From the IMG/VR virus record IMGVR_UViG_3300034257_000004, positions 1 to 62,945 of that record: 62,945 bases of DNA; one strand, given 5' to 3'. Shown piece by piece: positions 6,307 through 62,413 of the stretch. The position numbers and the translations under genes are program-made. The notes under the pieces are model-generated. The model was not told the DNA's origin and ran no database searches. It was given only the letters and a program-made list of their open reading frames with translations. Positions within the stretch are counted from its first letter, which is position 1. Every line of letters starts with the position of its first letter. Source of the DNA: a virus. Lineage: Duplodnaviria; Caudoviricetes.

Positions 6307-6738
6307 ATGGCTAAGAAGAATGAAACAGCAGCAGCGACCAAAAGTAAGGCGACCAAGGCAGAAGCGAAGACCCCCAAGGTTACCATCGGATCGACAGCGA
6401 TCGGCTTCCTGAAGGCCGGCAAGACAGCACAGGAGACCTTGGAGCTGACCCAGAAGGCTTTCCCGGATGCAAGCACGACGATCGCCTGCATCTACTGGTA
6501 CGCGAGCAAGAACGGCATCAAGCTGCAACGGCCCGCGAAGGAGAAGAAGGTGGTCAAGGTGCTGAGCGCCAAAGAAGCCCAGCAGAAACGCGTAGCCGAC
6601 AGACAGGCACGAGCAGCGAGTCGTCCCGGAGCATCGCAGCCCTCGGTGGTAGCAGACGTGGTCGAGGAGACCAAGGTCGCGACCAAACAACCGGCCAAGA
6701 CAACCGCTCGACGACCGACAGCCACATCGGCTCGCTAG
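6307..6738 (+). CDS. Lys/Ala-rich protein carrying the recurrent HTH-like domain
   Basis: IGSTAIGFLKAGKTAQETLELTQKAFPDASTTIACIYWYASKNGIKL; own promoter and RBS. Confidence 0.85.
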   Translation: MAKKNETAAATKSKATKAEAKTPKVTIGSTAIGFLKAGKTAQETLELTQKAFPDASTTIACIYWYASKNGIKLQRPAKEKKVVKVLSAKEAQQKRVADRQARAASRPGASQPSVVADVVEETKVATKQPAKTTARRPTATSAR

Positions 6739-19248: not shown

Positions 19249-19607
19249 TTGGTCGCTCCCTTGTAATGTTTGAGGCAGGCCTCAAGGTTGTAGACTACTC
19301 TCTCCTCGTCGTCCTGCCAGAACATGCCATCAAGGTTACCCTTGTTCCTGTGCATATAGAGAGAGCTCCTAGATACGGATGTACCCTGTAATTCTAGCTT
19401 GGTCATAAGGTCCTTCTCGCTGACCAGCGTGATGCCCTGGAGATTGTGCTCCTGCACGTACCTAGCGTTGTTGAGCCTCAGAGCCTCGGTCAGAGCCTTA
19501 TCCAGGGACGTACCCCTCACGATCGACAGGTTGTTCATAGTATCTAGTGCCTCTAACGCCCTGTCGTCTGTGATGTTCCAGCGAAAGTTCTTCTTCACCT
19601 CTGCCAT
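19245..19607 (-). CDS. putative DNA-binding protein
   Basis: GGAGG RBS at ATG 19607; C-terminal wHTH-like VSRSSLYMHR. Confidence 0.65.
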   Translation of the reverse strand: MAEVKKNFRWNITDDRALEALDTMNNLSIVRGTSLDKALTEALRLNNARYVQEHNLQGITLVSEKDLMTKLELQGTSVSRSSLYMHRNKGNLDGMFWQDDEERVVYNLEACLKHYKGATK

Positions 19608-19676
19608 ACTGTTCCTCCGTGAACTGTATGTTAACACACATAGTGCCGCATCGTATACACTTATTTTGTTTTTTTG

Positions 19677-19705
19677 TGTACATACAGAACAAAACGGTGT
19701 ACACT
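19677..19705 (+). promoter_or_regulatory. promoter for the DNA polymerase, in a divergent AT-rich gap
   Basis: TGTACA-N17-TACACT. Confidence 0.5.
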
Positions 19706-19716
19706 GTCGTTCACTT

Positions 19717-33689: not shown

Positions 33690-36032
33690 TCAGCCTACCT
33701 CCTCTACCTGCACGGACGTTGATATAAACATAGCGTGTAGTTTGCCGGAAGATGTCTCTCCGTGTATAGACAACCCAACACACACCCTGACACCTAGTCC
33801 GTGTCCATCTCGATGGTACAAGTCGAATACGCTACCCCTGTGTATAAGTGGGTCGAAACCTGCTGCTAACGCAAACTCACCGCTGCTTGGCGGGTTGTTC
33901 AACATACGGAGTTTCCTCTTAGCTAAAGCTATGGCTATGTTTCTTGGAACGCCGAGTGCACCTAAGGTAGCTACCACCCTAGTAATAACGGTCTCAGGTG
34001 TCAGTTTTAGCAGGACTTCTCGTTGTACACCGAACTCTCCGCCGTCTACTATGGGCAGCCCAGTCCGTGGTTCGCTAGTGCTGAAGGCAGTCGTGTTGGC
34101 TACATGGTCTACAACCGTTACTTGTGTATCCAGAGTCCTGTCAGGTTTGACTCTAAGACGTTCTATCCTAGTACGTAACGGACCGTAATCCGTAGACTGG
34201 TTAGCAGACGACTCTATAAACCCGTTACGATGAGCATCTACCCATGGGAGACGAAAAGGCTGGTCTCTATAGGTATTATCCTCGTCTACCAGTATCATAC
34301 CCCTGGTAGATATAAGGCAAAGATCTTGCAACGTCTCCGCAGTGTTGAAAGGGTTTCTAGAGTATGATACAGTGCACTTCTCGTCTAACGCTGTAAGAAG
34401 AGCGAGTGCATCAGTATCAGGGTCTGGAACTAGAGACTCGACCGTTCTAGTATGTCCAGTCTTCCTACCCCTGTCATCTAGTTGGTCCTTTTGCGTAGCA
34501 CGATGTACTATGGTTAATGTAGTATCGTAAACAGTTGTGACCTCCTCTACTAATACTTCTCGTATAGTAACTGCAGGAAGTGCCGTATTATAATACTGAC
34601 GAACCTTTCTTTGAGTCTCTGATCTAGTGTACCCAGGAGAACCGTAGCCGCCAACCGGACTTTCTGTAGACTCTAGTGCAAGGAATACCTCTCTGAATGC
34701 CTCTCCACCCTGTTCTGTATATTGCAACAGTATGGCCTCGTTTCTATCTCCTGCATCTTTAGTGTCTGAGTAGGTTAGGTAGTTCTTGGCTAGTACGATT
34801 CTAGGTACGAAACCAACTGGCAAAGGCTGCAACCTATCTAATATCCACAGTTCATTTGTAACATCATCTACAAAGTAGATCGGATCGTATGGTGCTACTA
34901 GTCCAGCTACTCCACCATGCCATCCAGAAGTGAGCGTGAAGTCTGCTTGCATGACCGGATAGTTTGCTATATTCGTCCTTATATCTGAGAAGCCACAACC
35001 TGTTACATAAGCTCTTCTCAGAACGTCGTACAAATACAATGGTGACCTAGGTTCGAATAAAGGAGTTATAGGTGTACCATCTTCAGTCCTAAGTATATTC
35101 ATAGGATCTACAACAGTATTCATGGCTACCCTAGACGCGTCGTACATAATCACCGGCCGTGCAGGACCTAATTTCCACTTATCCGCCAATGGATTCGCTG
35201 CATTGAAGGTCAGAGTGTCTGCCGGACCACCAGACGTAGACTGCGACTTTCTCCACCCTAGAGAATAGGTTCTACCAAATAGTTTACCGTCCGCTACTAT
35301 TGTCTTCCAATAGGTAGTAGCTCCATCTGCAGATACTATACCTATTTCAAACGAGTACATTGAAGCGAATGCTAATTGTGTCAGGTCTGGGTTTACTAAT
35401 GTGACACTCAGACTAGCGCCGAGAGTATCTTTTGGTTGAGTATACTCAAAGGCCTTAAAGGGAACCTCTTCGCCGTTTATCTTCAACCTCCCGTGGTACT
35501 CTGCTGCCCTACCAGCAACTGTGGCCGCTGCTGGGTAAGCGTCAATAACTATGGTGAACCCGAACTCATCGGACGGAATTGTATACATATCAAGTACCGC
35601 TAAACATGTGGACACAAAATATGCGGTCTGTCCGGTACGTCTACCAAGAGACACGATAAGTGCTGAAACAGAGTCTGCCGTCATACCGTCCAGTAGAACT
35701 ACGTTGGACTCACCTACTACCCTGGGTACCGGTGAGAAGATAGCATTAGTTAATAGTTCTACACCACCTAGTTGTCTCTTGACCCCTAGAGAAACGGTAA
35801 CAATACATTCTGAATTAACTGCACACCTTGTCAATATATTCAGGATTGATATAGGTCCACCACCAGGCCATACCTGTAGTTCGCTATCAGAGTCGAAGTC
35901 TACCCCTTGCAGAGATGTACTATAAACCAGTGCTACGGCTAGTGTAGAGGTAGCTAGAAATACAGCTTCTACTACGGCCTCAGGGCTATCAGCTTCTCCA
36001 GCATAGCCCTCTTGTAGTAGTAACAGACTCAT
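33690..36032 (-). CDS. putative minor tail / baseplate hub protein
   Basis: 780-aa beta-rich ORF downstream of the TMP. Confidence 0.65.
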   Translation of the reverse strand: MSLLLLQEGYAGEADSPEAVVEAVFLATSTLAVALVYSTSLQGVDFDSDSELQVWPGGGPISILNILTRCAVNSECIVTVSLGVKRQLGGVELLTNAIFSPVPRVVGESNVVLLDGMTADSVSALIVSLGRRTGQTAYFVSTCLAVLDMYTIPSDEFGFTIVIDAYPAAATVAGRAAEYHGRLKINGEEVPFKAFEYTQPKDTLGASLSVTLVNPDLTQLAFASMYSFEIGIVSADGATTYWKTIVADGKLFGRTYSLGWRKSQSTSGGPADTLTFNAANPLADKWKLGPARPVIMYDASRVAMNTVVDPMNILRTEDGTPITPLFEPRSPLYLYDVLRRAYVTGCGFSDIRTNIANYPVMQADFTLTSGWHGGVAGLVAPYDPIYFVDDVTNELWILDRLQPLPVGFVPRIVLAKNYLTYSDTKDAGDRNEAILLQYTEQGGEAFREVFLALESTESPVGGYGSPGYTRSETQRKVRQYYNTALPAVTIREVLVEEVTTVYDTTLTIVHRATQKDQLDDRGRKTGHTRTVESLVPDPDTDALALLTALDEKCTVSYSRNPFNTAETLQDLCLISTRGMILVDEDNTYRDQPFRLPWVDAHRNGFIESSANQSTDYGPLRTRIERLRVKPDRTLDTQVTVVDHVANTTAFSTSEPRTGLPIVDGGEFGVQREVLLKLTPETVITRVVATLGALGVPRNIAIALAKRKLRMLNNPPSSGEFALAAGFDPLIHRGSVFDLYHRDGHGLGVRVCVGLSIHGETSSGKLHAMFISTSVQVEEVG

Positions 36033-37090
36033 ACTTTACCTCCCATCATTATTGGCTCCGTAACAAATACCCTAAAGCAGTCACAATAGAACTCTGCTGT
36101 CAGAGTGCTATCGGTGTTGTGTATCAAGAAACCTACTTCTGCCGGAGTGAATGGCAAAGTGCCCGTGTACCGTAGCTGCCAGAAAGGTACTCTCCTGTCA
36201 GGCATAGAGTACATATCGTAGTTGGTCCCAGTCTTTACTATCTTGAACCACTGCCACAGGCTATCCTTCATATCTGTGGCTGTACCAGTGTTAGATGCAG
36301 CATCATACCCAGACAATGGAGCTGCCCCACCGTTATGGTTGGTCCAACTGAAGCCACCGGTGAAAAAACCAGTAGAGGCTATACGTTGCCCGAATATAAC
36401 TAAGTCGCAAGTGTTTGGGTTACCAGCAGCATCTTGTAGTAAGGCTATCGAACCCCACATAGACCCGTCGGACACAGAACTAAGGGGTGTATTTGTCAAC
36501 AAAGCCGTACGTACTATGATAGTCCAATCACCACTAGGCACAGGTTGAAAAACACCAGACAACATGTAGGCACCTGACCCTTGTGGTCCTTGTACTAACT
36601 TTAGACAACTATCCTGTACAGATACCGAGGCATCTGCCGGTTGAAACAAAGTCCACAGCGGACCGAGTGCTAAACCATTAAACTCGTCGTTCTGGATATG
36701 AGGTAGCTCAGGTGGTGCTTGGTCCATGTAGAACGTTCGTTGTCTGTCCTCTAGTTCTAACACTACGCTAAATGGAGCTCCGATCCCCGTAGCATCTACC
36801 TGGTCTAGGTCTATGGACAACAAGTCTCCTGGCTCTAGTGGCAAGCTAAGTCCAGTCACCTCACCCTCGGTATCGCCATCTAGTATCCTGGGACGATCGC
36901 CCTGATCTGTAAACAGTGTGGTGCCATTGTTGTGTACGTCTACTATGACTGCCGCAACATCTGCTGCCATACCACTGTAGAGTCTAACTGCTTTTAGTAA
37001 CGCCTTAACGGGTACTACCATTTCGAAGACATCTACAGCCGGCACATCTAGTGCTGCTCCTCGTTTTATTGGGTTGGCTATAAGTAACAT
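36029..37090 (-). CDS. putative receptor-binding tail protein (lectin-like C-terminus)
   Basis: AAGGAG RBS at 37090; GDLLSIDLDQV; NDEFNG..L...W beta-sandwich start. Confidence 0.6.
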   Translation of the reverse strand: MLLIANPIKRGAALDVPAVDVFEMVVPVKALLKAVRLYSGMAADVAAVIVDVHNNGTTLFTDQGDRPRILDGDTEGEVTGLSLPLEPGDLLSIDLDQVDATGIGAPFSVVLELEDRQRTFYMDQAPPELPHIQNDEFNGLALGPLWTLFQPADASVSVQDSCLKLVQGPQGSGAYMLSGVFQPVPSGDWTIIVRTALLTNTPLSSVSDGSMWGSIALLQDAAGNPNTCDLVIFGQRIASTGFFTGGFSWTNHNGGAAPLSGYDAASNTGTATDMKDSLWQWFKIVKTGTNYDMYSMPDRRVPFWQLRYTGTLPFTPAEVGFLIHNTDSTLTAEFYCDCFRVFVTEPIMMGGKV

Positions 37091-37098
37091 AGGGCTCC

Positions 37099-37503
37099 TT
37101 AATCGAATGAGAAGGTGATACCATTGATACTCACCGTAAGCTCGTCTCCTATGCCTATAGTTTTGTAGGGTGTAGGTGCAGCAGCCCAAAACAGTAGGTT
37201 ACCCCCTGTTAACGCATCGAATATTCCCACAGCTACTATGGTACCCCATATTGCCGAAGCAGCAGGAAACGTCAGAGCAACCGCATTTCCTTTAGAGCCA
37301 GCTACAGCGGCAGGAAAGTTGGTAGAGTTGTTGGTGACTGCAGCCCTAGCATACGACCCGCCAGCAACCTCTGTACCACCGCCGGCGTCTGTAGGAACCG
37401 CTGTATATAAGGCTACATAAACCGTCGCTGGTCTGGCATAGTCCGCACCGCCCAGTATGTGGTCTAGTAGTTCATTCTCTAAGAAGTCGCTCATGGCGCC
37501 CAT
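37099..37503 (-). CDS. phage tail fibre-like structural protein
   Basis: SDFLENELLDH...YVALYTA.PTDAGGGTEVAGGSYAR...WGTI..VGIFDA.TGGNLL. Confidence 0.8.
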   Translation of the reverse strand: MGAMSDFLENELLDHILGGADYARPATVYVALYTAVPTDAGGGTEVAGGSYARAAVTNNSTNFPAAVAGSKGNAVALTFPAASAIWGTIVAVGIFDALTGGNLLFWAAAPTPYKTIGIGDELTVSINGITFSFD

Positions 37504-37957: not shown

Positions 37958-40900
37958 CTACTGCTGTGCCGCGGGTAGTCTACCCAGTGTAGCCTCTACT
38001 CCATACGAGTCGTAGCGCTGAGTTATGGTCACCAGCAGGTTTCTGTCTCTGCTGACTAAGGCCTGGAGCATCTGTCCTATCATACCACTCTTTCCGTCGG
38101 TTCCCACCAGACCGTCCCTTAGTGCTAGCGTAGCAGTCATAGCAGCGTCGGCTCGTTGCTCCTGTCCTCTAGTGTACTGAGCCTCCTCCTGAAGTGCTGC
38201 TATACGACCCTTGAGCAAGTCAGGTGTCATCTCTTCTCTAGGCAACGCACCAGTGATAGCCAAGAACTGTCCACGAGTCGCTGCTCTAGCACCTTCGTTG
38301 TCGGGCGCGTTGCCAGAGAGTCTAGCTAGTTCTGACAGTTGAGCTCTGGCCTGTTTGACTGCTCCTCTGCTAACCTCTGCCCTGGCCTTGACGTCTTTGA
38401 CCTCCTCCTCATTCTGTAGTATCTGGTCACGGAGCGCCTCTGCTTTGTATTGCGCGAGCTCTCTTCTCTTAGGGTCTCCGAACCGATCCCCCGGAGTTAT
38501 GCCCGCGGTCTGCTGTAGAACAAACTCGTTGAGCTGCTTGTTTATCTGCCGTCCTAGTGCCGTGTCATTGGACGGCCTGTCACGAGCGATCGAGCGTACG
38601 TACTCGAACTGTTCGCGGTCTCTCTGAAAGACGGACGTCGGGTCGAAACCTCTCTCGTATAACTTGGCCTCTCGCTCTAAGTTTCTGTTCTGGTCACGTG
38701 CCTTAAACTCAGCTTGCCATACGTCTAAGGAACGCTTCATCTCCCCTGTAAGCTCTCGGAACGGCTTAGCTAAGTCTGTCGCCTCGAATTCCAGTGACAC
38801 CGCCCTCATACCGTCAGTGATTCTCTGCTGGTACTTGCTAACAGCCGCTGCTTCTAGGTTCGCCGCCTGCAGCTTAGCTACTACCTCGGGTCCGAACTGC
38901 TTGAACTTCTCCTGGGTACTCTGTAGTGCTGCGTCCGCGTCTAGGGCGAGCTTTACGTACGGGTTGCTCTCTCCTATCAGCTGTAGCTGCGATAGCTCAT
39001 TGAGAGAACCCAGCACCGTGCGACCAAGCTCTTTAATCTTACCATAGGCGTCCTTATACGGTGCGTCCTCTACCTCTCGGTTCTGAACATTCAACGCAGC
39101 ACCACGGTCCTCTAGCTGGAACCGCATGGTCTCTACTGTGTCGGTAGAGAGGTTGGCCTTGTTCTTCTCCAGGTAGTCCCACTGGTCCGCTACGTCTTTG
39201 AACTGAGCCGACAACAATGACAGCTGGCGAGCATTGCTCTCTAGTACGGTCGAGCCTATAGCATCAAAACTCTCGGAGGTACGTTTAGCCGCGATTCTCT
39301 CGTCGTCCATGAACCGCTTCTTAAGGTCTCGCTCAGCCTTCTCTGTGGCCATGCGCTGCTTGGTCTCTGCAATCTTCTTAAGAGCTATCTCTCTGCTGAT
39401 CTTGTCATTAGCTTCTGCCGCAGCCGCTTCCCGCTTGTAGACTTCCTCTGGTCCCTGGAACTTCATCTGATCCCAGAACGCTTGTCCCCACTTAGCTAGT
39501 CCCGAAGATATGGAGTTCCATAGAGACGACGCAGCTGCTTCTACCGTGTTCAGTCTCTGGGCAGCTAGGTTCGCGTAACCAGAGGACTCTTTCATCGCGG
39601 CATTAGTAAGTATCTGAGCCTTCTCCATCTCCGTCAATCTAGACGTGACAGTACCGGCTGCCCTCGCGTAGTCCTCTAGTATTACGTCCCCACGAAGACC
39701 CGTCAGTTCCTTGAAAGCGTCAGCACTTCCTTCGCTCAGTCCCTTAAGTGCCGTAGCTGTAGTGTCTGGTGAGAGACCACGGGCAGTAGCCATCTTGACC
39801 AAGGCTTCACCCTGTCCCGCAGTGAAGGTCTGACCCATGACCAGCCTTAGTTCGCCAAAGGCTAAGGCCACGGCCGCAGCCTCCATCCTGGTAGCTATCA
39901 TGGAACCCAGGAACGTGTCTATATTAGCCTTGGCCTCGGAGTAAGACTGTCCTGTATCTCTGGCAGTAACGTTGAGCTGAGCCTGCTCCTTGTTAGCCGC
40001 GGCAACGAGCTTGACTATTCCAGCTACAGCGAGACCTGCGACCGCTATACCACCTATTGCTCCGGCAGCGGGACCAGCCGCTAACGCCGACTGCAAGGAG
40101 CCAAGACCCGTAGCACCTATGAACGGTCCGGCGAAGCCTAGAGCGCTTGACACACCTGCGAGGTTGCCTTGAGCTCTAGCATATCCCCCTGTACCCCCAG
40201 TGCTCTGACGACCCTTAGGCGGGTTGGCTGCAAGCCTCTGTGCTTGCTGCTCCTTGTTATGGATTCTTATGAGAGCGTCACTTCTCTGCTTCTGTAAAGA
40301 TAGAACAGCAGCGTTGTTCCTTTTCTCTAACGCTAACTCCTCGCCCTTGTGTTTTGTATAATCCTTGCCCATCTGAGCACGGATCTTACTTTCTTGGGCA
40401 TACCCATAGTTCTCTCGTTGCGCCCTATTCTTGGCGTCAGCTTCTTCCGATCTTACTATTTCCTTCTGGAACTTCTTAGCAGCATTCACACGCTGTATAA
40501 GTTGACGCTCGTACTCTGCTCTATCTTGCTTCCATAGTTGATAGAGAGCAGCACTCCTCTGACGTTGTAGACTTATCTCCGCATTCTCTTCCGGACTTTT
40601 CTTCCTCTTCCAAGGATCTTCTTCAGGTGGCTGTGGTCCACCAGGAGGTCTAGGAGGTTTGTCTCCACCACCGCCACCGCCCGTACCTCCACCTCTGCCC
40701 CCTCCACCAGTAGAACTTCCGCCACCTATATGAGGTGTTCTACTACCGCCCGCAACTTTAGCTAAAGGTACACCTGCCTCACTAGCATAGGTGTAGATAC
40801 TGTTCATCGTAGTCTTGGCATCGGGGAACTGAGCCAAGACCAGATTCAAAGTATCACGTGCACCTACACCCTGTCTCAACAAGTCTTTGGCGAATGTACC

Positions 40901-42337
40901 TATGCCATGCTTAGCGGCCGTATCTACCTGAGCTGTGGCCAAGGGTTTAATTACCGTTGCGACAGGAGTAGACTGAACAGTTGATGCAGACTTACGTGCA
41001 GACCCCTTTACAACCGCGGGGGACTGAGGTTTGACCCCATATCTACGCTCGAACTCTTTATCGAACGCAGCACGATTAGCAATAGAAGCTGTGAATGCCT
41101 CTACACCTTCTTCGCTACGACCATACTCCTTAACTTTTACACCAGGGAACTTTGCTAAACGTTCGTATGATCTCTCAGCTTCTATAGAACGAGCACCCCT
41201 GGCACCTGTTGGGTCCTCAGAGTACAGACCCTTCATCTTTCTCTCGTGAGACTCTCTGAGTGCTTCCGCGTAGAAACGCCCCCCGTAGCCTTTACCTTGA
41301 TACTGGGTTTTAGCTCTTACTTCATCTACGCTAAGGTACCTGCCCTTTATACCTTGCTCTCTCATCCACGGTGGTATATGAGCTAGATCTAGTCGACCAG
41401 TTACGGCACTCTCGTTGCCTACCTCCAACGTACGTAACGTGGGTGTTCGTTCTATATACTGGGAAGAGGCTAAACGTGAGTCGTAAGGATAACTAGTCTT
41501 ACCTTTAGGCAGAGTCTTAGGTGGTTTGATCGGTCTAGCCCTTACCTTAGCTACTTGAGTCTCTAGGGCCGCAATACCTTCTATCTCTTCTTGGCTGTAG
41601 CCTTCATTGGTCTGTTTAGCTGCTGCTACCGCTCGTAGAAGTCTCTGATTGTCTGTGGGCCGGTTTATAGACCCCGGACCGGCCAGCTTTATCCCGGCTT
41701 GACTCGCGTACGTGTAGATACCCTTGATAGACGTCTTTGAGTCTGGGAACTGCGACTTGACTGCCGCTAGAGTGTCCGCGGCGCTAGTGCCACCCTTGAG
41801 GAGCTGTGTAGCATAGGCTCCTATACCTTGTCCCGCTCTTACGTTCGCCACCTTAGCCTTGGTGTTAGCATTTACGGCAGACGTCTCTCGCTCGATGGCC
41901 AGGGCGGTCTCCCTGGTTGCCGCGGCTACCCTCTTCTCTTCCGCCAGAGTCTCTCGTACGGCGGCGGACCTCTGAGCTCGGATCTTCTGTACTTTGGGTT
42001 GTGTATCAGGAGTCGGCGTACTAGCTAGTGGTTTGTCCTGTGCTACTACCTTCTGGGTCTTGGCTATCTCCTCGCGGAGTTGACGCTCAGTGACCTTACG
42101 TATCTCAAGGATATTCTTCTGCTTCTGCTCCTCGGTAAGAATCTCCGCATCGGCAGCCTTCTTGGCGAAGGCTACCTTCTGACGGTTTACCTCCTCGATG
42201 TCCTTGAGCGAACGTCTGTCTATAGTCTTGCCGCGAAGAGATACCTCCTTCTCTACCCGGTCAAAAGAAGGCCCGTCCATCTCGGCCATGAACTGTAGGA
42301 ACGCAGTGTTCCCTGCTTCTGTGGGTTCGTCTGGCAT
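37958..42337 (-). CDS. tape measure protein with N-terminal HTH-GNAT-HTH extension
   Basis: Longest ORF, after the chaperones; helical A/E/K-rich with a Gly/Ala hydrophobic segment. Confidence 0.85.
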   Translation of the reverse strand: MPDEPTEAGNTAFLQFMAEMDGPSFDRVEKEVSLRGKTIDRRSLKDIEEVNRQKVAFAKKAADAEILTEEQKQKNILEIRKVTERQLREEIAKTQKVVAQDKPLASTPTPDTQPKVQKIRAQRSAAVRETLAEEKRVAAATRETALAIERETSAVNANTKAKVANVRAGQGIGAYATQLLKGGTSAADTLAAVKSQFPDSKTSIKGIYTYASQAGIKLAGPGSINRPTDNQRLLRAVAAAKQTNEGYSQEEIEGIAALETQVAKVRARPIKPPKTLPKGKTSYPYDSRLASSQYIERTPTLRTLEVGNESAVTGRLDLAHIPPWMREQGIKGRYLSVDEVRAKTQYQGKGYGGRFYAEALRESHERKMKGLYSEDPTGARGARSIEAERSYERLAKFPGVKVKEYGRSEEGVEAFTASIANRAAFDKEFERRYGVKPQSPAVVKGSARKSASTVQSTPVATVIKPLATAQVDTAAKHGIGTFAKDLLRQGVGARDTLNLVLAQFPDAKTTMNSIYTYASEAGVPLAKVAGGSRTPHIGGGSSTGGGGRGGGTGGGGGGDKPPRPPGGPQPPEEDPWKRKKSPEENAEISLQRQRSAALYQLWKQDRAEYERQLIQRVNAAKKFQKEIVRSEEADAKNRAQRENYGYAQESKIRAQMGKDYTKHKGEELALEKRNNAAVLSLQKQRSDALIRIHNKEQQAQRLAANPPKGRQSTGGTGGYARAQGNLAGVSSALGFAGPFIGATGLGSLQSALAAGPAAGAIGGIAVAGLAVAGIVKLVAAANKEQAQLNVTARDTGQSYSEAKANIDTFLGSMIATRMEAAAVALAFGELRLVMGQTFTAGQGEALVKMATARGLSPDTTATALKGLSEGSADAFKELTGLRGDVILEDYARAAGTVTSRLTEMEKAQILTNAAMKESSGYANLAAQRLNTVEAAASSLWNSISSGLAKWGQAFWDQMKFQGPEEVYKREAAAAEANDKISREIALKKIAETKQRMATEKAERDLKKRFMDDERIAAKRTSESFDAIGSTVLESNARQLSLLSAQFKDVADQWDYLEKNKANLSTDTVETMRFQLEDRGAALNVQNREVEDAPYKDAYGKIKELGRTVLGSLNELSQLQLIGESNPYVKLALDADAALQSTQEKFKQFGPEVVAKLQAANLEAAAVSKYQQRITDGMRAVSLEFEATDLAKPFRELTGEMKRSLDVWQAEFKARDQNRNLEREAKLYERGFDPTSVFQRDREQFEYVRSIARDRPSNDTALGRQINKQLNEFVLQQTAGITPGDRFGDPKRRELAQYKAEALRDQILQNEEEVKDVKARAEVSRGAVKQARAQLSELARLSGNAPDNEGARAATRGQFLAITGALPREEMTPDLLKGRIAALQEEAQYTRGQEQRADAAMTATLALRDGLVGTDGKSGMIGQMLQALVSRDRNLLVTITQRYDSYGVEATLGRLPAAQQ

Positions 42338-42338
42338 G

Positions 42339-42770
42339 CTATCTCCTACTGCCTTTGAGTTCAGCCTCTCGTTCCTTCTGTCTAGCCCGTATCAGACTGT
42401 ACTTTTCGGCCCTTAGTATGCTGACTAAGATGCTGACGGTGGTAGGCCACTCAGGACTATGACCCTTGCCGTCTACCCTCGCGTCTATGGACGCTACCGC
42501 TCCTACGTCCTTCATCAACTTAGCCACGGACCATGGCCAAACGTACGTGTCACCTTCTCCGGGTCTTACATAGTTCCTGGATACTGCTAGGTCCGCGACC
42601 TCTCTCTCTACATCTTCTATCAGCTCCGAGTACATCTGGGTCACCAGACAGTCGGGGCAACCGTGAGCCATGTCGGCCTCGGGCCTGGTGCAGGACGAGG
42701 GACACCCGTCATAGGTGCCATCCAACTCCAACAGCTGCTCGTTGTAACAGGTCAGCTTCCAGGCCGTCAC
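42339..42770 (-). CDS. tail assembly chaperone, second ORF (probably reached by +1 frameshift)
   Basis: Directly before the TMP, no RBS, open from the CTT-TGA-C site. Confidence 0.7.
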   Translation of the reverse strand: MTAWKLTCYNEQLLELDGTYDGCPSSCTRPEADMAHGCPDCLVTQMYSELIEDVEREVADLAVSRNYVRPGEGDTYVWPWSVAKLMKDVGAVASIDARVDGKGHSPEWPTTVSILVSILRAEKYSLIRARQKEREAELKGSRR

Positions 42771-42780
42771 ACGGAACAGG

Positions 42781-43242
42781 TCAAAGATAGTCTGGCGACC
42801 GGAGGGAGTACCAGTATTTGTTCATCACGGCTTGGCAGATCATGGCCATGCCCTCAGCCTCATCTTTGTCGTCTCGCATGAGATAGTGTCGTATCACACT
42901 TTCCAGAGACTCTCCGTTGAACTCTGTAGGAAAGTCTGGGAAACCCTCGGGCGGCGTCGTGCTCAGCATGGCGATCATCTGCAGGTTATAGAGATAATAC
43001 TCGGATGGTGTCTGCTCGTCGTCCGGCATCCCCAGGAACTTCTCCTGCATAGCCTGGGCGTCCTTATTCAATTGCACACGCATGTGGAACGTGAACGGGT
43101 TCTCGACGGTCTCGGGATAGAGCGCGGGGAAACCTACCTTGACAGGGAAGGAGTTGCGAGGGATGAATCTCAACACGCTCGGAGGGGTCGCTGTAGCTAG
43201 TGCTTCTTGTTCTGTGTCGTTTTCTTTGCTGGCTGTAGTCAT
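42781..43242 (-). CDS. tail assembly chaperone
   Basis: Position between tail tube and TMP; GAGG RBS at ATG 43242. Confidence 0.7.
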   Translation of the reverse strand: MTTASKENDTEQEALATATPPSVLRFIPRNSFPVKVGFPALYPETVENPFTFHMRVQLNKDAQAMQEKFLGMPDDEQTPSEYYLYNLQMIAMLSTTPPEGFPDFPTEFNGESLESVIRHYLMRDDKDEAEGMAMICQAVMNKYWYSLRSPDYL

Positions 43243-43369
43243 GTTGTGCCTCTTCTGCGCGCAGAAAGCGCGTCTGTGACCGTTCTGTGTGCTTACGTGT
43301 AACCTACTCAGTGTGTACGGCCGAAGAACGTGTACGACGTACACAAACGCTCCGAGTAGACGTTGTGTT

Positions 43370-48206: not shown

Positions 48207-49298
48207 TTAGGAGATAGCGCCGATAACCCCGATAGCCTCTGGCTCCGTGATAACCGGTAGACTGGTCTCCCAGCCCTCTCCCTCTACGCGTGGCGGTTTA
48301 TTAGTGAATGCCTCGAGCCGTAGAACACGACCCGGGCTGGACTGGCCGGCTGCTCTACCGACGCCTACGTACCCGAGCGTGCTCTGTACGATCTGCTCTT
48401 CGTCCGCGAAGTCCAGCATCTCGTCTCGGTCCGTCTCGCAAATGAAGGTCATTACGTTACGGGCCAAGAAGTATCCGCTGGCAGTCTGCGTACGGTACTG
48501 AAGGTTGTACTCCTCCAGTGGTGGCAGATCGTTCGCCTGGAATATGCGGTTGAGCGCATCCAGGTTCGCACGCTGGTTGGCGATCGACAGGGTGCCTCCC
48601 AGGTTGATGACAGTAGAGCCGATACGTGCTTGCATCTTGGCGTTGCCCGCCAGGATACTTATAACGGGTCGCGAGGTGACGATGCGACGCACCGTGAACC
48701 CTTTGCCCGCTAGCATGTCGACTATCGGAAGGATGTCCGACTCCATCGGGTCATTAGCGTCGTTGGACCACACCACGCCCGCGTTGACGCGGTGACCGGA
48801 CGGGTTGCTATAGGCTACGTCCTCGACGTACCCGTTATCGCCACGTCTCTGTACGACCGCGGCCACTATGGCCTGCCACCTTTGTCGCTCGTTGTGCTCC
48901 AGCATGGCACGGTTGAGCGTGACATCGGACCAGTCAAGAATACGAGCCATAGCCTGCATGTCCCCGCGGTTGCCCAGGAGGTCAATAAGGGCATCGTACT
49001 CTCTGGATGTGATTTCTCGGCCGATGTCCGACTCGCCGAGCTCTACTGCGAACGAGCCGACGAACTCGCCTTTCTTCTTCTGCACTGGCGAATAGCGAGT
49101 GCCGTCGTTGGCCACCACGGTCCTGTACCGAATAGCGTCCTCTCGGAACATGTTCTGCGGAACCGTGCGCTCCGGCAGTATCTCGGCTCCTATGTACCTG
49201 CGAGCCGATGTTCCGAACTGTGAGAGCGGGTTCGATGCAACGTCCACGAACTGCCCCTCTTCTCTTAGCTGCGCGATGAGTGTGTTAAGGTCTCTCAT
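48207..49298 (-). CDS. major capsid protein (lambda gpE-like)
   Basis: ILPERTV...VANDGTRYSP...ERQRWQA...W.TSLPVITEP; position; host-like codons. Confidence 0.85.
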   Translation of the reverse strand: MRDLNTLIAQLREEGQFVDVASNPLSQFGTSARRYIGAEILPERTVPQNMFREDAIRYRTVVANDGTRYSPVQKKKGEFVGSFAVELGESDIGREITSREYDALIDLLGNRGDMQAMARILDWSDVTLNRAMLEHNERQRWQAIVAAVVQRRGDNGYVEDVAYSNPSGHRVNAGVVWSNDANDPMESDILPIVDMLAGKGFTVRRIVTSRPVISILAGNAKMQARIGSTVINLGGTLSIANQRANLDALNRIFQANDLPPLEEYNLQYRTQTASGYFLARNVMTFICETDRDEMLDFADEEQIVQSTLGYVGVGRAAGQSSPGRVLRLEAFTNKPPRVEGEGWETSLPVITEPEAIGVIGAIS

Positions 49299-49936
49299 TA
49301 GTCGTGGCCCTCCGTACACTCGTAAAGAGCCCTGATCTTCGCGATAAGGGTAGCGGACAGAGTGCTGAACGCTGGCAGGTAGTTTGTCTTGACGAGACCA
49401 CCATGGCGGTAGAACTCAACGTCCGCGTTGTTGTCCGCGTCGGTGACGTCGAAAGCCACGAGGTAGAACTGGTCGTCCGCATCATCTGCGGGACCGAACG
49501 GGGTCTTGGCCGCTGCCTCCGCGAACGTGCGACCTAGAAAAGTGCCACTCGGTATACTCTTCAGACCGCCCGTACCCGGATACAGGTACTCGTCGTTGTC
49601 CTCGATCGCCACGATGAGAGCGTCGACCGGAATAGAGGTGTCACCCTCTTCTACGTCGGCCGTGGTGCGAGCGAACTCGTCCGCAGTGCCGAAGTACATG
49701 TTAGTGCCCGCGGGGATGAAGGCATCCTCGTTGGCATTGGTGAGCGGATCGACTACGAGCGCCGTCGCTCCTATCGCCGCTGTAGCGCTTAGTTTCACTA
49801 GCACACTCTCGGTGCCACGAAACTGAGCCGGATCTACCCTGGCACCGCCCGGAAGCAGGCGTTCAGGACTCATGAAGTCCCCGGCCCACCTGGGCGCTGT
49901 CAGCTGATTCTCAATCTCGCTGAAGCCCTTAGCCAT
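49298..49936 (-). CDS. head decoration / minor capsid protein
   Basis: IPSGTFLGRT..E...FGPA; between scaffold and capsid genes. Confidence 0.65.
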   Translation of the reverse strand: MAKGFSEIENQLTAPRWAGDFMSPERLLPGGARVDPAQFRGTESVLVKLSATAAIGATALVVDPLTNANEDAFIPAGTNMYFGTADEFARTTADVEEGDTSIPVDALIVAIEDNDEYLYPGTGGLKSIPSGTFLGRTFAEAAAKTPFGPADDADDQFYLVAFDVTDADNNADVEFYRHGGLVKTNYLPAFSTLSATLIAKIRALYECTEGHD

Positions 49937-52646: not shown

Positions 52647-54200
52647 CTACTTGAATGGTCCTTTGCTACTGCTGCCCTCGGCATCCCACGGTAGCATTAT
52701 AGAGTCTGCGTTGAACGCAGCCATAGAGGTACAGACCGCAAGGTCTATCTTCATGGAGCGTTGTCGCTTGACTATCCTTATTCTCTTACCGTCCTCGGTA
52801 GTCTTCCTATCCGCATTGTATACGTGCGTCCTTATGTCGGACTGTCCCACGTGCGCTATGCGTCTGGTGACTATCCTGTCGAGTAGTGCTTTGTCCGACT
52901 GCTCTCTTAGTACTCCCTGGGGAAACTCGGTGGTCATGACACCGGGCCACCACCTTTTGTCCGGCAGCTGACCAGCCTTCCTGAGACGAGTCATCATGTG
53001 ATGCAACTCGCGCGGATCATAGACTATCTCGCCTATGGCGTACTTTAGGCAGACATCCTTTATGTCGGACTCTATATCGTCGAAGTCTCTCTGTACCCCC
53101 TTGGCCTCCCACATCTTATAGCCCCTGATAGCTACCACGTCCTCTTTGAAAGGGTGAGGACCGGCGAGTATCATGGCGAACACATCCCCCTTGCTGGCGT
53201 ACGCTCCATCTACCGCCATGACCAACGGATCGTACGGTGTGAGCCCCGGCAGACTGGAGTCATAGCAAGCGTCCCATAGGGCCATGTCATGCAGGAAGTG
53301 TTGTACGTCGTCCTCATCCTCCCACTGAGCCTCCAGGAACACCCGACGCTCGGACTCAGTCAGTGTGGAGCCTCTGTCCTCAGCATAGTCGTCTGCCAGG
53401 TTCTCCTCGTTGTCTAGCGTGTATAAGGTCACGACCACGGCCTTGCTCTTAAACAGAGCGCGAGGATCGTCCTTCTTGAAGTGCTCCTGACCTACATCCA
53501 TCTCGCCGAACGGGTTAGGTACCCCACCAAAGAAGTCGAACAGCCAATGCTTCTTGGGAGTAGTAGTGAACCAGAGCTGTGGAGGTTCGCCCTTGGGTCC
53601 CGGTATACGGACGCGGCCTGACAGTACCTTGAGTATGTCGGCGTCGTCCTTGCGTCGTACCTCATCACCGTGCGCGAAGCTGACATTGGGACCGTGCCAG
53701 CCGGTAGGGTCGTCCATACCACCGCAGTACAGAGTGCTCAGTCCGCCGTATTCGTTGTGGAAGTGGAGCTCGAACTGCTTGGAAGGTTCCCAGTCCGTCC
53801 TCAGCCTGTAACGCTCCCTCTCTATCACGCTCTCCAGGGGACACCACCTACGGAACTCTGCCCAGAGGCTCTTTTTGAAGTGTTCAAAGTCCGGCGACAC
53901 CATGATGCCCGTCATACCGCGTCGCAAACGCTCGAGGTCCTTTATAATACCGCCGACCGACTTGCCCCCGCCCTCTCCGCCCTTTATCAGAATGTGCTTG
54001 GGTGAGTCGGAGTATATGACGAGGTCTTCGCCCCGGTGTTTCTTGGGCTTGTATGTACGACCGGTCTCCCTGTTGACGTACTCTCTCCACTTGTAGACCG
54101 GTCCTACCTCGGTAGGCGAGAGTATAGAGAGCACAGCGTCCTGGACACGCTGGCGCCCTGTCTTTACAACCGGAGGTCTGTACTGTAGGTTGGAGCTCAC
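52647..54200 (-). CDS. terL: terminase large subunit
   Basis: GGEGGGKS, GPN....GDE, TTTP, AVDG, YDP, KIDLAV. Confidence 0.92.
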   Translation of the reverse strand: MSSNLQYRPPVVKTGRQRVQDAVLSILSPTEVGPVYKWREYVNRETGRTYKPKKHRGEDLVIYSDSPKHILIKGGEGGGKSVGGIIKDLERLRRGMTGIMVSPDFEHFKKSLWAEFRRWCPLESVIERERYRLRTDWEPSKQFELHFHNEYGGLSTLYCGGMDDPTGWHGPNVSFAHGDEVRRKDDADILKVLSGRVRIPGPKGEPPQLWFTTTPKKHWLFDFFGGVPNPFGEMDVGQEHFKKDDPRALFKSKAVVVTLYTLDNEENLADDYAEDRGSTLTESERRVFLEAQWEDEDDVQHFLHDMALWDACYDSSLPGLTPYDPLVMAVDGAYASKGDVFAMILAGPHPFKEDVVAIRGYKMWEAKGVQRDFDDIESDIKDVCLKYAIGEIVYDPRELHHMMTRLRKAGQLPDKRWWPGVMTTEFPQGVLREQSDKALLDRIVTRRIAHVGQSDIRTHVYNADRKTTEDGKRIRIVKRQRSMKIDLAVCTSMAAFNADSIMLPWDAEGSSSKGPFK

Positions 54201-60569: not shown

Positions 60570-61400
60570 CGACCGTCACGACCAGACCGACTCGGAAGCC
60601 GTAGAAGTCCCAGGCACCGTCGGGAAGCACCCTCAGGCCATGTAGCAGGATCTGTAGGAACACGCCGTCACCTCCTGGTCTGAAATTTTCCCGGGGGTAC
60701 TCCCTGACGACCGTCGTCGCCCCGTACAGTTAGGGTATTCCCCCGGAACATCGTGCCGTACCCGTAGACCTTCTAGAGACGGGCCGCTCTTAAGCGAGCC
60801 CAAGCCAACCAGTACATCTGGTACGAACTGAAATTTTTCCGGGACAGGTCTCTCAACCGTGCCCACCCATCCCGGAAACCGGGACCCACGCCAGTAGTCC
60901 CGAAGCCGTAGAACCTGTAGGGAGGAGCCGGAGTCCCCCGCGACGTTACAGGCGAGGACCGCGTAAGCTGGCCCACGAACCGTCGCGTTCGTCCCCCGGG
61001 GATGCGCATCTCGCCGAACCAAAACGGCCCGGAGTCCGCCCGGAAGACCTCCGACCCCCGCGCGCATTGTATCACACAAGCCGGCAAGGGGGAAACGGAA
61101 TTTTTCGCGGGGACGTTGCGTACAGTTCCCTACAACGAAGTGACGAAATCTGTCACCCATTTTATTAAAAACATTCAATATAATTGAACTATGACAAAAA
61201 GTGTCATTTGCTAGTGGCAGAATCTGTCGCTTCATCGACGAAACATCATTTCATTAACAGCAAACTATTGAAAACAAACAACTTATATGTTTCATCCATG
61301 AAACGTTGTTTTATAGACGAACGGCACAACAATTGCATTATATATTATAGATTCTGTTATTCTAGAATCTAAGATGTTTGAAAACTTTAGAACTTAAGCT
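60570..61400. other. non-coding divergent control region (GC-rich repeats, then an AT-rich island); candidate genome end / packaging region and early promoter
   Basis: No credible ORF; separates late (-) and early (+) arms; several repeats and palindromes. Confidence 0.6.
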
Positions 61401-61422
61401 AAGTACAAACTTGGAGGTTGAT

Positions 61423-61638
61423 ATGAACATAGGACAGTTTGCTACAACTTTGCTGAAATCAGGCAAGTCGGCTCAAGAAACCTTAGGTACAGTACAGAAG
61501 GTTTTTCCAGGATGCAAGACAAGTATGAAATGCATCTACTACTATGCAAGTAAAGCCAAGATCAAGCTAGGCTCAGGAGCTGTTGCAGATCAGAAGCTTC
61601 TGAAGGCTGAACTAGCCAAGCTGAAGAAGACTGCATAA
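61423..61638 (+). CDS. stand-alone recurrent HTH-like domain protein; first gene of the early arm
   Basis: GGAGG RBS; MNIGQFATTLLKSGKSAQETLGTVQKVFPGCKTSMKCIYYYASKAKIKL. Confidence 0.85.
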   Translation: MNIGQFATTLLKSGKSAQETLGTVQKVFPGCKTSMKCIYYYASKAKIKLGSGAVADQKLLKAELAKLKKTA

Positions 61639-61648
61639 GGACAGAAGG

Positions 61649-61680
61649 TACAAGACTATCATGGTCTTGTATCTTTTTGT
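61649..61680 (+). terminator. intrinsic terminator
   Basis: TACAAGAC/GTCTTGTA stem followed by TCTTTTTGT. Confidence 0.7.
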
Positions 61681-61714
61681 TGTTTCTATACCACACAAGA
61701 AAGGTCTAGTTGCC

Positions 61715-61882
61715 ATGAAAGAAGAAGATAAGGATGAACAAGACAGTCAGACGGAGCTCATGCAGGAACAGATGCTGCAAGACATAACGCCTCAGGTAGA
61801 GGCATGCCAGGCTAGCTGCGGAGACGAGCTGGCAGTCTGTATAAGCAAGCATGAGGAAGCATGGTTGCAGGCCAGAAGGTAA
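61715..61882 (+). CDS. small acidic hypothetical protein
   Basis: GAAAGG RBS. Confidence 0.55.
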   Translation: MKEEDKDEQDSQTELMQEQMLQDITPQVEACQASCGDELAVCISKHEEAWLQARR

Positions 61883-62385: not shown

Positions 62386-62413
62386 CCGAGGGTACAAACG
62401 AATCGAGGTAGTT

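What the first reader, a model, noticed from the sequence alone, without database searches (positions are those of the whole stretch)
40763..41827. Tape measure protein carries an HTH-GNAT-HTH cargo whose HTH-like domain also occurs as free early proteins
Seen: the TMP has an N-terminal extension of ~570 aa ending in a Gly/Pro linker. It holds two copies of a ~48-aa unit: GIGAYATQLLKGGTSAADTLAAVKSQFPDSKTSIKGIYTYASQAGIKL (41685-41827) and GIGTFAKDLLRQGVGARDTLNLVLAQFPDAKTTMNSIYTYASEAGVPL (40763-40906). Between them lies YLSVDEVRAKTQYQGKGYGGRFYAEAL...EAERSYERL. The same unit makes up most of the 61423 protein and the core of the 6307 protein. Established: V-x5/6-(Q/R)xxGxG is the acetyl-CoA-binding motif A of GNAT acetyltransferases; TMPs are ejected into the cell envelope or cell during infection; GNATs occur in phage polyvalent proteins. 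Inference: the virion delivers a DNA- or protein-targeted acyltransferase before any phage gene is expressed, and the free copies made right after entry continue, compete with or partner it. Possible roles are host takeover, anti-defence or protection of incoming DNA. This is my best candidate for an undescribed system.
Basis: partly seen in the sequence, partly recalled or inferred. Interest (0 to 1): 0.9.

Follow-up and report, generated by a model that had tools for sequence, protein, structure and literature searches.

The report
Tail protein carrying a repeated three-helix cargo
A phage's giant tail protein carries an extra front section in which two copies of a small, positively charged three-helix domain flank an unknown segment; the same domain also forms two free small proteins, but the proposed acetyltransferase identity of the middle segment could not be confirmed.

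Summary
ORF 37958-42337(-), 1459 aa, holds two copies of a ~50-aa unit (aa 171-218 and 478-525). The unit recurs in free proteins at 6307-6738 and 61423-61638: 4 of 4 places, E 1e-9 to 3e-52.

With an alignment the unit folds confidently (pLDDT 89.6) as a basic three-helix bundle. Its best structural matches are DNA-binding HTH domains, but only weakly (Z 5.4).

The unit has no Pfam family. It matches three PHROG families of unknown function, and a profile search found 150 small relatives.

The only detectable homologue of the tail protein (955 aa, locus L010) lacks the whole ~570-aa front section.

The layout also occurs elsewhere. In MuF-ART minor head proteins of phages Xp12, Xoo-sp2 and phiH1, two units flank an HELGH segment, and each genome has 3-4 free copies.

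The GNAT reading is unproven. Every profile test was negative, and the fold prediction failed (pLDDT 44). Only a language-model look-alike search and a non-specific motif favour it.

The tape-measure identity rests on size, position and composition, not on a family match.

Verdict: a polyvalent-type injected cargo grafted onto a tail protein, a new variant of a known kind. The enzyme claim remains open.

The parts
37958..42337 (-). 1459-aa tail-module protein (tape-measure-type), P0001
   Evidence: ORF and translation. AGGAG plus ATG start, abutting the upstream ORF. Homologue in L010 covers aa 615-1189. ESM features of aa 600-1459 resemble TMP_2, TMP_3 and PhageMin_Tail clusters at 0.93-0.94. 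No TMP HMM hit.
41828..42337 (-). N-terminal lead, aa 1-170; charged and, by eye, helical-looking
   Evidence: Translation. Weak PHROG 21513 match to aa 114-243, E 0.0031. No similarity to the L010 N-terminus.
41684..41827 (-). Unit copy 1, aa 171-218 (HMM match aa 168-219)
   Evidence: PHROG 17205, 34102 and 38698.
40907..41683 (-). Orphan middle segment X, aa 219-477. The candidate domain core is aa ~285-430 (nt 41048-41485) and holds the QYQGKGYG motif.
   Evidence: phmmer against 1.84 billion representatives: self plus one spurious repeat protein. No Pfam match at E<=10. No PDB match. AF2 pLDDT 44. ESM features point to small viral GNAT clusters at 0.93. GC3 0.40 against 0.56 for the tail-protein body.
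40763..40906 (-). Unit copy 2, aa 478-525 (HMM match aa 475-526)
40613..40759 (-). Gly/Pro-rich linker, aa 527-575, between the cargo and the body of the tail protein
   Evidence: Translation. G+P fraction 0.41 over aa 527-600.
6307..6738 (+). Free 143-aa protein P0002: unit at aa 23-76, flanked by Lys/Ala-rich basic tails (pI 10.3)
   Evidence: AGGAG upstream.
61423..61638 (+). Free 71-aa protein (P0036, which is P0003 read from its ATG): the unit plus a C-terminal helix
   Evidence: GGAGG lies 6 nt before the ATG. AF2 with alignment gives pLDDT 89.6.
42339..43344 (-). Two small ORFs (187 and 143 aa) directly upstream, in the position of tail assembly chaperones
   Evidence: No family hit. 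They lie in different frames, and no slippery heptamer sits at the overlap.
37099..37503 (-). GP4 gp80-like fibre-dimer protein, two genes downstream
   Evidence: PF23140, E 1e-42. Relatives occur in myo-, sipho- and podophages.

Best explanation
The 1459-aa protein is the phage's tape-measure-type tail protein, onto whose N-terminus a polyvalent-protein-style cargo has been grafted. The order is a ~170-aa lead, then a cassette 'unit - X - unit', then a flexible Gly/Pro linker, then the ~890-aa body.

The unit is a ~50-aa, positively charged three-helix (HTH-like) domain. I infer that it binds nucleic acid, most likely the phage's own incoming DNA or its end. It would then hold the flanked segment X at the DNA as the tail protein leaves the virion ahead of the genome.

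The two free unit proteins, one of them with histone-H1-like Lys/Ala tails, would do the same binding job once the phage genes are expressed.

X is an orphan segment and may be an enzyme. An acetyltransferase is possible but not shown.

Shown: the four copies; the fold and charge of the unit; the add-on nature of the N-terminus; and the recurrence of 'unit - X' - unit plus free copies' in MuF-ART minor head proteins of other phages.

Inferred: DNA binding, ejection into the cell, the timing of the free copies, and any catalysis.
For: Copies: 4 of 4 places found, E 1e-9 to 3e-52.

Fold: helices at residues 3-12, 17-27 and 35-44, pLDDT 89.6, from a 46-row alignment. The best solved matches are DNA-binding HTH domains:
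- small terminase of phage G20C, Z 5.4, rmsd 1.7 over 45 residues;
- then Nur/Fur, Orc1/Cdc6, transposase and GcrA DNA-binding domains;
- Foldseek against PDB gives the same kinds, all at E>=0.7.

Charge: 121 of 124 unit instances have positive net charge, median +3, pI 9.4. P0002 has pI 10.3.

Add-on: the L010 homologue (955 aa) lacks the region. 0 of 57 gp80-type loci carry a unit.

Recurrence in virion proteins:
- P0004 has MuF, two units and an ART domain.
- Xp12, Xoo-sp2 and phiH1 each have 2 units in the 1194-1203-aa open frame that encodes the 1192-1202-aa minor head protein. Each also has 4, 4 and 3 further copies in small ORFs of the leftward operon that also holds the helicase, polymerase and nucleotide-metabolism genes.
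- Both of our units align collinearly to theirs: hhalign probability 96%, E 2.6e-9.
- Their inter-unit segment carries HELGH in 4 of 4.
- 6 of 11 further viral loci show the same two-unit ~1190-1317-aa architecture.

Background: polyvalent proteins are multidomain proteins predicted to be injected with the DNA, and can include GNAT and ART domains (PMC5512222, passages read).
Against: - No TMP family profile matches the body, so the carrier's identity is circumstantial.
- The structural matches of the unit are in the 'middling' range, which the tool says can reflect a common helical arrangement. No DNA binding was tested.
- X has no detectable relative at all and no usable model. It could be a spacer.
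- X is unrelated to the HELGH segment of the MuF-ART proteins (hhalign probability 0.04%). The 'cassette' parallel therefore concerns layout only.
- Apart from this one protein, none of the sets I sampled holds another tail-protein fusion.
- Whether three copies of a folded ~150-aa domain fit inside a tail tube is unaddressed.
Confidence: 0.5

Rival explanations
1. One reading: X (aa ~300-410) is a GNAT acyltransferase, delivered by the virion and flanked by HTH domains, which modifies a host or DNA-associated target before phage genes are expressed.
For: - The ESM Atlas feature search of aa 285-430 gave 30 hits. 12 are clusters carrying GNAT Pfam families and 18 are unnamed viral clusters. 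The best score was 0.93 and every named hit was GNAT.
- By eye, the local pattern YLSVDEV-x5-QYQGKGYG-GRFYAEAL...SIEAERSYERL has the spacing of GNAT strand 4, helix 3 and motif B.
- GNAT domains do occur in injected polyvalent proteins (PMC5512222). One sits in the DarB-like protein P0125 of a gp80-type phage: PF00583, 21.4 bits.
Against: - Pfam hmmscan at E<=10: 0 families.
- PF00583 and PF13508 in the record: 0 candidates.
- PDB phmmer: none.
- tblastn against 50,697 phage records at E<=10: 1 irrelevant hit.
- BLASTP to the GNAT-bearing P0125: best E 0.67, outside its GNAT domain.
- hhalign to a 6-sequence polyvalent-type GNAT alignment: probability 0.3%. It paired a different stretch, RLDLAHIPPWMREQGI, with motif A.
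- The motif occurs 4 times in the protein.
- The ESM shared-feature count of 164 is below the tool's 170 guide. The tool states that a third of shuffled proteins also get ten-of-ten family agreement.
- The AF2 model was helical at pLDDT 44, which is uninformative.
Confidence: 0.3
2. The N-terminal section has no effector role. It is a structural or assembly extension of the tail protein, for example one that holds the last-packaged DNA end at the head-tail junction or sets tail length. X is then a non-catalytic spacer between two DNA-binding units.
For: - X is an orphan with no conserved relatives and low hydrophobic content: 0.36 for aa 285-430 and 0.32 for aa 220-284.
- The units are basic and HTH-like.
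- From recall, not from a call here: the tape measure N-terminus lies at the head-proximal end of the tail, near the DNA end, in lambda- and SPP1-type phages.
Against: - The L010 relative assembles its tail protein without the section.
- The parallel MuF-ART proteins place a catalytic-looking HELGH segment between the units.
- The ESM lead to GNAT.
Confidence: 0.3
3. The carrier is not a tape measure protein but an internal (ejection) protein of a short-tailed phage. The conclusion about delivery into the cell would still hold.
For: - A neighbouring gene is a homologue of the fibre protein gp80 of podophage GP4 (PF23140, E 1e-42; PMC13730344, passages).
- No sheath, tube or TMP profile matched any neighbour.
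Against: - gp80-like genes occur in myophage Lietuvens, next to sheath, tube, TMP and baseplate genes.
- The same search also hit 49 Mycobacterium phage records and Acidovorax phage ACP17. That these are long-tailed phages is recalled, not checked in a call.
- The gene order here is a 444-aa, then a 163-aa, then two small ORFs, then the giant protein, as in long-tailed phages.
- ESM features of aa 600-1459 point to TMP families.
Confidence: 0.15
4. The long ORF is an artefact: an assembly chimera, or a lost stop codon joining a separate cargo gene to the tail protein gene.
For: - There is only one record of this protein: a cluster of 1 member on 1 contig.
- GC3 of the cargo differs from the body: 0.49, and 0.40 in X, against 0.56.
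Against: - The identical protein is held from two assembly sources, JGI/IMG and Logan.
- The frame is uninterrupted over 4380 nt.
- There is a strong ribosome-binding site at the first ATG and no Met in aa 527-620 to restart.
- The analogous MuF-ART fusions are conserved across many isolates.
Confidence: 0.03

Closest known systems
Polyvalent proteins of phages (Iyer et al. 2017, PMC5512222), specifically the MuF-ART minor head proteins of Xanthomonas phages Xp12 and Xoo-sp2 and Pseudomonas phage phiH1
   Same: - The same ~50-aa unit is present twice in one virion protein, flanking another domain, and each genome holds further free-standing copies.
- The concept is the same: a multidomain protein packaged in the virion and delivered with the DNA (passages).
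   Different: - The carrier here is a tail-module, tape-measure-type protein, not a MuF head protein.
- There is no ART domain and no HELGH segment.
- The inter-unit segment is unrelated (hhalign probability 0.04%).
- 'Tape measure' occurs 0 times in the main text of that paper.
Tape measure proteins with embedded functional domains, such as the muralytic domains of T5 pb2 or mycobacteriophage TM4 (recalled; enterococcal TMP lysins seen only in the abstract listing of PMC10194240)
   Same: A long tail-lumen protein that carries an extra globular module and leaves the virion at infection.
   Different: - The known embedded modules are cell-wall hydrolases.
- Here no hydrolase family matches.
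- The module is N-terminal, ~570 aa long, and built on HTH-like units shared with cytoplasm-directed polyvalent proteins.
GNAT acetyltransferases of phages: Rac of phiKMV-like phages, GNAT domains of polyvalent proteins, and the free GNAT gp63 in the structural module of Bcep22-like phages
   Same: A possible motif A (QxxGxG) and an ESM feature resemblance. The setting is also a virion or structural module (PMC7824862; PMC9144972; passages read).
   Different: No profile, pairwise or structural support for membership.
DNA-end or DNA-binding proteins delivered with phage DNA, such as T4 gp2 and SPP1 gp7 (recalled, not from a call)
   Same: The proposed working mode: a small DNA-binding module carried in the virion that enters with the genome.
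   Different: No sequence relation was tested or seen. DNA binding by the unit is only inferred from fold and charge.

Membership tests
GNAT acetyltransferase superfamily (segment X, aa ~285-430) | Significant match to a GNAT sequence profile | tested here: not met
   Pfam hmmscan at E<=10 gave 0 families. PF00583 and PF13508 gave 0 candidates in the record, while 14 of 14 control genomes hit. hhalign to a 6-sequence GNAT alignment gave probability 0.3%.
GNAT acetyltransferase superfamily (segment X, aa ~285-430) | Mixed alpha/beta GNAT fold with the strand 4 - helix 3 pyrophosphate-binding loop | tested here: inconclusive
   AF2 on the single sequence gave pLDDT 44 and pTM 0.19. No relatives exist to build an alignment. 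ESM features resemble small viral GNATs, 0.93 with 164 shared.
GNAT acetyltransferase superfamily (segment X, aa ~285-430) | Motif A, (Q/R)xxGx(G/A) | tested here: met
   Present at aa 345 and 347, but also at 548 and 1339 in the same protein, so it is not specific.
GNAT acetyltransferase superfamily (segment X, aa ~285-430) | Acyl-CoA binding and transfer | not testable with these tools
   Needs a biochemical assay.
Tape measure protein | Match to a TMP family profile (Pfam TMP_2, TMP_3, PhageMin_Tail; PHROG tail families) | tested here: not met
   No hit in Pfam, PHROGs or NCBIfam, or with a two-sequence profile against PDB. ESM features give TMP clusters at 0.93-0.94 with 113-141 shared features, which is a lead only.
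Tape measure protein | The largest gene of the tail module, after two small chaperone-position ORFs and before baseplate or fibre genes; charged sequence with a Gly/Ala-rich hydrophobic stretch | tested here: met
   Gene order. Hydrophobic Gly/Ala stretch at aa ~735-790. A gp80-like fibre gene lies downstream. Comparable order in myophage Lietuvens.
Tape measure protein | Programmed frameshift in the upstream chaperone pair | tested here: inconclusive
   The two ORFs lie in different frames with a 40-nt open overlap, but no XXXYYYZ site is there.
Helix-turn-helix DNA-binding domains (the unit) | Compact three-helix bundle superposable on HTH domains | tested here: inconclusive
   The three helices are confident (pLDDT 89.6). 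Best Z is 5.4, to the HTH of the G20C small terminase; most top rows are DNA-binding HTH domains, but Z lies within the range the tool calls common for helical models. Foldseek against PDB gave no E<=0.001.
Helix-turn-helix DNA-binding domains (the unit) | Nucleic-acid binding | not testable with these tools
   Only indirect evidence: 121 of 124 instances are positively charged, P0002 has basic tails, and free copies sit beside helicase and polymerase genes in Xoo-sp2 and phiH1.
Phage polyvalent proteins (Iyer et al. 2017) | A multidomain virion-delivered protein sharing domains with recognised polyvalent proteins | tested here: met
   The unit is shared with MuF plus ART proteins: P0004 has PF04233 and PF03496. 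Collinear two-unit match at probability 96%.
Phage polyvalent proteins (Iyer et al. 2017) | At least one recognised effector or catalytic domain, and a known packaging domain (MuF, DarA-N and the like) | tested here: not met
   No Pfam family reaches its cut-off in P0001. The carrier is a tail protein instead.

The most novel reading that the evidence does not exclude
The tail's tape measure protein serves as a delivery vehicle for a cytoplasm-directed effector cassette. An undescribed acyltransferase-like enzyme is clamped between two DNA-tethering three-helix modules and released behind a Gly/Pro linker as the first phage protein to reach the cell. Free paralogues of the tether, made from the genome, then take over the same sites. 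The 'unit - enzyme - unit' cassette would be a portable module that phages mount on different ejected carriers: a MuF head protein with a zincin-like segment in Xp12-type phages, and a tail protein with a GNAT-like segment here.
Probability: 0.2. Interest if true: 0.8.

Novelty: new variant of a known kind. Interest (0 to 1): 0.55.

Why it matters
- If the carrier is a tape measure protein, it extends injected polyvalent proteins, so far tied to head-packaged carriers such as MuF, DarA/DarB and N4 vRNAP, to the tail lumen. It also extends tape measure cargo beyond cell-wall hydrolases.
- It flags a widespread, unnamed phage domain. A profile search found 150 relatives, there is no Pfam family, and the three matching PHROG families are of unknown function. 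The domain appears in two settings: paired around a second domain in virion proteins, and free in the operon that also holds the replication and nucleotide-metabolism genes. Isolated phages carry it (Xp12, Xoo-sp2, phiH1), so its function can be tested at the bench even though this phage is known only from a metagenome.

Tried and rejected
**Close relatives**
- megablast of the gene and tblastn of the free protein against phage records: no match.
- tblastn of the body (aa 580-1459) against phages: no match.
- Pattern scan of viral contigs with the body: none.

**Long and short relatives of aa 150-540**
- Only P0004 and P0005, each through the unit alone.

**Segment X**
- The one non-self hit, P0006, is a 2819-aa Ig-repeat protein with 5 stretches; I judged it spurious.
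- tblastn against phages at E<=10: one irrelevant hit.
- To build a GNAT alignment I used the GNAT of the polyvalent protein P0125. tblastn gave only 2 phage and 3 plasmid hits. The resulting 6-sequence alignment did not match X.
- One viral-contig scan was wasted on a wrong reading frame.

**Podophage idea**
- It was raised by the gp80 hit. I rejected gp80 as diagnostic after finding it in a sheath-and-tube myophage, and in many Mycobacterium phages that I recall to be siphophages.

**Pfam on unit proteins**
- Only sub-threshold Gp44_lid matches, in 9 of 46 members, best E 0.0026. I did not take this as kinship.

**Unit self-association**
- A two-copy complex prediction of the 71-aa free protein returned 'no answer'. 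It says nothing either way.

**Literature**
- 'tape measure protein' + 'acetyltransferase' + 'N-terminal': 31 papers, 15 listed.
- 'tape measure protein' + 'polyvalent protein': 6 papers.
- From the listings, and passages of two papers, I saw no description of a tape measure protein carrying a GNAT or this unit.
- The supplementary domain tables of PMC5512222 (LPD1-40) could not be seen. The unit may be one of those LPDs under another name, although no Pfam LPD family hit P0004 at E<=0.01.

Full report
**Setting**

The window is a complete virus record of 62,945 bases whose ends repeat for 127 nt. Genes at 30.1-61.2 kb run on the minus strand. They include:
- a large terminase (52647-54200, PF20441);
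- a major capsid protein (48207-49319, PF03864 and PHROG 29);
- a run of small ORFs, then a 444-aa and a 163-aa ORF, then two small ORFs (187 and 143 aa);
- the 1459-aa ORF 37958-42337.

Two genes further on lies a homologue of the fibre-dimer protein gp80 of phage GP4 (PF23140, E 1e-42). Elsewhere the record has a family A DNA polymerase (19399-21570) and a DnaB-type helicase (15305-16771). Almost nothing else matches a named family, so this is a very divergent phage.

Every quoted string is present at the stated place, give or take one base. The four copies share 16 invariant positions. A search of the whole record with the small free protein found exactly the four places, at E 2.6e-52 (self), 1.9e-14, 6.4e-14 and 1.1e-9.

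The unit matches PHROG families 17205, 38698 and 34102, all of unknown function. It matches no Pfam family. A profile search returned 150 small proteins at E<=0.001, all unnamed or 'hypothetical' apart from one 'Lpp' label and one garbled entry. It scored only the 8000 candidates sharing most words, and 120 are listed. My unit HMM finds the domain in 123 of the 124 proteins stored at that point.

Two forms dominate:
- ~70-aa proteins like the one at 61423;
- ~170-aa proteins with an extra N-terminal region and an Ala-rich tail.

**The unit**

With a 46-row alignment the 71-aa free protein folds at pLDDT 89.6. It has three short helices (residues 3-12, 17-27, 35-44) plus a C-terminal helix.

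- Foldseek against PDB gave nothing at E<=0.001.
- The exhaustive VIA-align scan gave a best Z of 5.4 (rmsd 1.7 over 45 residues) to the HTH of the small terminase of phage G20C. Next came Fur/Nur, Orc1/Cdc6, transposase, GcrA and resolvase DNA-binding domains. The tool warns that such Z values are common for helical models.
- Against predicted viral structures the best rows are relatives in Xanthomonas phages Xp12 and Xoo-sp2.
- The domain is basic in 121 of 124 instances, with median net charge +3. P0002 adds Lys/Ala-rich tails on both sides, giving pI 10.3.

I read this as an HTH-like, probably nucleic-acid-binding module. Binding itself is inferred, not shown.

**The N-terminal section is an add-on**

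- Among 57 viral loci that carry a gp80-like gene, one (L010) encodes a 955-aa homologue of the giant protein. It matches aa 615-1189, starting at its own residue 84 (phmmer 1.7e-39; BLASTP 7.8e-36).
- Neither L010 nor any other of the 57 loci has a unit.
- The L010 record as a whole has none either, though it is estimated at 51% complete.
- The junction falls in the Gly/Pro stretch, aa 527-575.
- The first ATG has an AGGAG 5 nt upstream and abuts the stop of the preceding ORF.
- The identical protein is held from two assembly sources.

I therefore take the fusion as real.

**The middle segment X**

Results against the GNAT reading:
- phmmer of aa 219-477 against 1.84 billion representatives found only the protein itself and one Ig-repeat protein, which I judge spurious.
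- Pfam at E<=10 found nothing.
- PDB sequences gave nothing.
- PF00583 and PF13508 gave nothing in the record, while all 14 control genomes hit.
- AF2 without an alignment gave pLDDT 44.
- I built a small alignment of GNAT domains of the polyvalent-protein type around P0125. That is a DdrB-ParB + GNAT + methylase protein from another gp80-type phage.
  - hhalign gave probability 0.3%.
  - It chose a different stretch of X as 'motif A'. This shows how easily the motif is met.
  - The motif occurs four times in the protein.

Results for the GNAT reading:
- The ESM Atlas feature search placed aa 285-430 next to small viral GNAT clusters, best score 0.93. 12 of 30 hits carry GNAT families, and the other 18 are unnamed.
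- The shared-feature count (164) is below the level at which the tool says family members usually sit.

I put the GNAT reading at about 0.3.

**The layout recurs elsewhere**

The only other long protein found with the unit, P0004, has a MuF domain, two clear units and a C-terminal ADP-ribosyltransferase domain. Full-length homologues are the minor head proteins of Xanthomonas phages (Xp12, Xoo-sp2, Mallos and others), a Variovorax phage and Pseudomonas phage phiH1.

A unit-profile scan of three of these genomes gave:

| Phage | Units in the minor head protein | Further copies in small ORFs |
|---|---|---|
| Xp12 | 2 | 4 |
| Xoo-sp2 | 2 | 4 |
| phiH1 | 2 | 3 |

- In Xoo-sp2 and phiH1, the two records I viewed, the further copies lie in the leftward operon that also holds the helicase, polymerase and nucleotide-metabolism genes. 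In Xp12 they lie on the same strand at similar positions.
- Aa 150-540 of our protein aligns to those proteins through both units at once (hhalign probability 96%, E 2.6e-9).
- In 4 of 4 of them the ~210 aa between the units contain HELGH. That segment is unrelated to our X (probability 0.04%).
- Of 11 more viral loci found with the unit profile, 6 show the same two-unit ~1190-1317-aa protein, 3 are free proteins of 186-300 aa, and 2 are cut at a contig end. None is a tail protein.

So 'two units around a second domain in a virion protein, plus free copies in the same genome' is a recurring design. This phage is the only case I found where the carrier is a tail-module protein.

**Is the carrier a tape measure protein?**

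- No TMP profile matches.
- The gp80 hit first suggested a podophage. However, gp80-like genes sit in the baseplate cluster of myophage Lietuvens, beside annotated sheath, tube, chaperone and TMP genes. They also occur in many Mycobacterium phages, which I recall to be siphophages.
- The gene order, the ~890-aa body with a Gly/Ala hydrophobic stretch, and the ESM lead to TMP families make a tape measure the best reading, at roughly 0.8.
- If it were instead an ejection protein of a short-tailed phage, delivery into the cell would still be expected.

**Comparison with what is known**

- Polyvalent proteins are described as multidomain proteins predicted to be injected with the DNA, with GNAT and ART domains among their parts. 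There are 40 unnamed LPD domains, some also found solo near structural genes (PMC5512222, passages).
- The main text of that paper never mentions tape measure proteins (0 occurrences).
- Two literature searches gave no description of this arrangement. I saw listings and a few passages only, and the supplementary domain tables were not available.
- The cargo known to me in tape measure proteins is muralytic (recalled). Nothing muralytic matches here.

**Verdict**

- The repeated domain and the add-on are real and not ordinary.
- The HTH-like fold is supported, weakly on the structural-match side.
- The GNAT and the 'early partner' ideas remain hypotheses.
- I file this as a new variant of the polyvalent-protein theme on a tail-protein carrier, with an uncharacterised domain that can be tested in cultured phages.

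Noticed in passing
window 37099-37503 (-): A strong homologue of the GP4 gp80 fibre-dimer protein (PF23140, E 1e-42). PHROG 240 labels the same family 'head protein', and several GenBank records copy that label. The 386-aa ORF downstream (36029-37189, TTG start) overlaps it by ~90 nt, so that ORF's real start is probably further in.
   Followed up: partly
L065 1-4395 (-) (virus record G015, contig end): A DarB-like polyvalent protein, over 1465 aa and cut by the contig end. It has a DdrB-type ParB domain (PF18763, E 2.7e-14) and a minimal GNAT (PF00583, 21.4 bits). By eye it also has a methyltransferase-like motif at its end. It lies in a phage that also has a gp80-like gene.
   Followed up: partly
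window 41048-41485 against 37961-40537: Third-position GC of segment X is 0.40, against 0.56 for the body of the same gene and 0.71 for the free copy at 6307-6738. The parts of this system may have different origins.
   Followed up: no
proteins P0005, P0011, P0014, P0020 and others; L005 5728-6147: Most free unit proteins (~170 aa) share a second conserved N-terminal region, 'MS.SELI..YN ... EFKNLAAAR', ahead of the unit, and an Ala-rich tail after it. This region has no Pfam match and is absent from this window's copies.
   Followed up: no
L005 6325-6927 (+): A 200-aa pentapeptide-repeat protein (ANLxG repeats) lies directly downstream of a free unit gene in another viral contig. An HNH-like ORF lies upstream.
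   Followed up: no
Xp12 record MT664984.1 42965-43087 (-); BFVD row F4YXP3: A weaker unit match lies inside a 347-aa open frame in Xp12. A 343-aa 'AAA+ ATPase domain-containing protein' of Roseobacter phage RDJL Phi 1 is a structural look-alike. In addition, 9 of 46 unit proteins give sub-threshold matches to the clamp-loader lid domain (PF21328). A link between the unit and AAA+ lid domains was not examined.
   Followed up: no
window 42339-43344 (-): The two small ORFs upstream of the giant gene lie in different frames with a 40-nt open overlap, but no classical slippery heptamer is there. If they are the chaperone pair, the shift would be +1 or -2 rather than -1.
   Followed up: partly
window 1-127 and 62819-62945: An exact 127-nt terminal repeat. 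The plus-strand genes at 61378-62838 and 101-13785, which include both free unit genes, therefore form one continuous block across the record's ends.
   Followed up: partly
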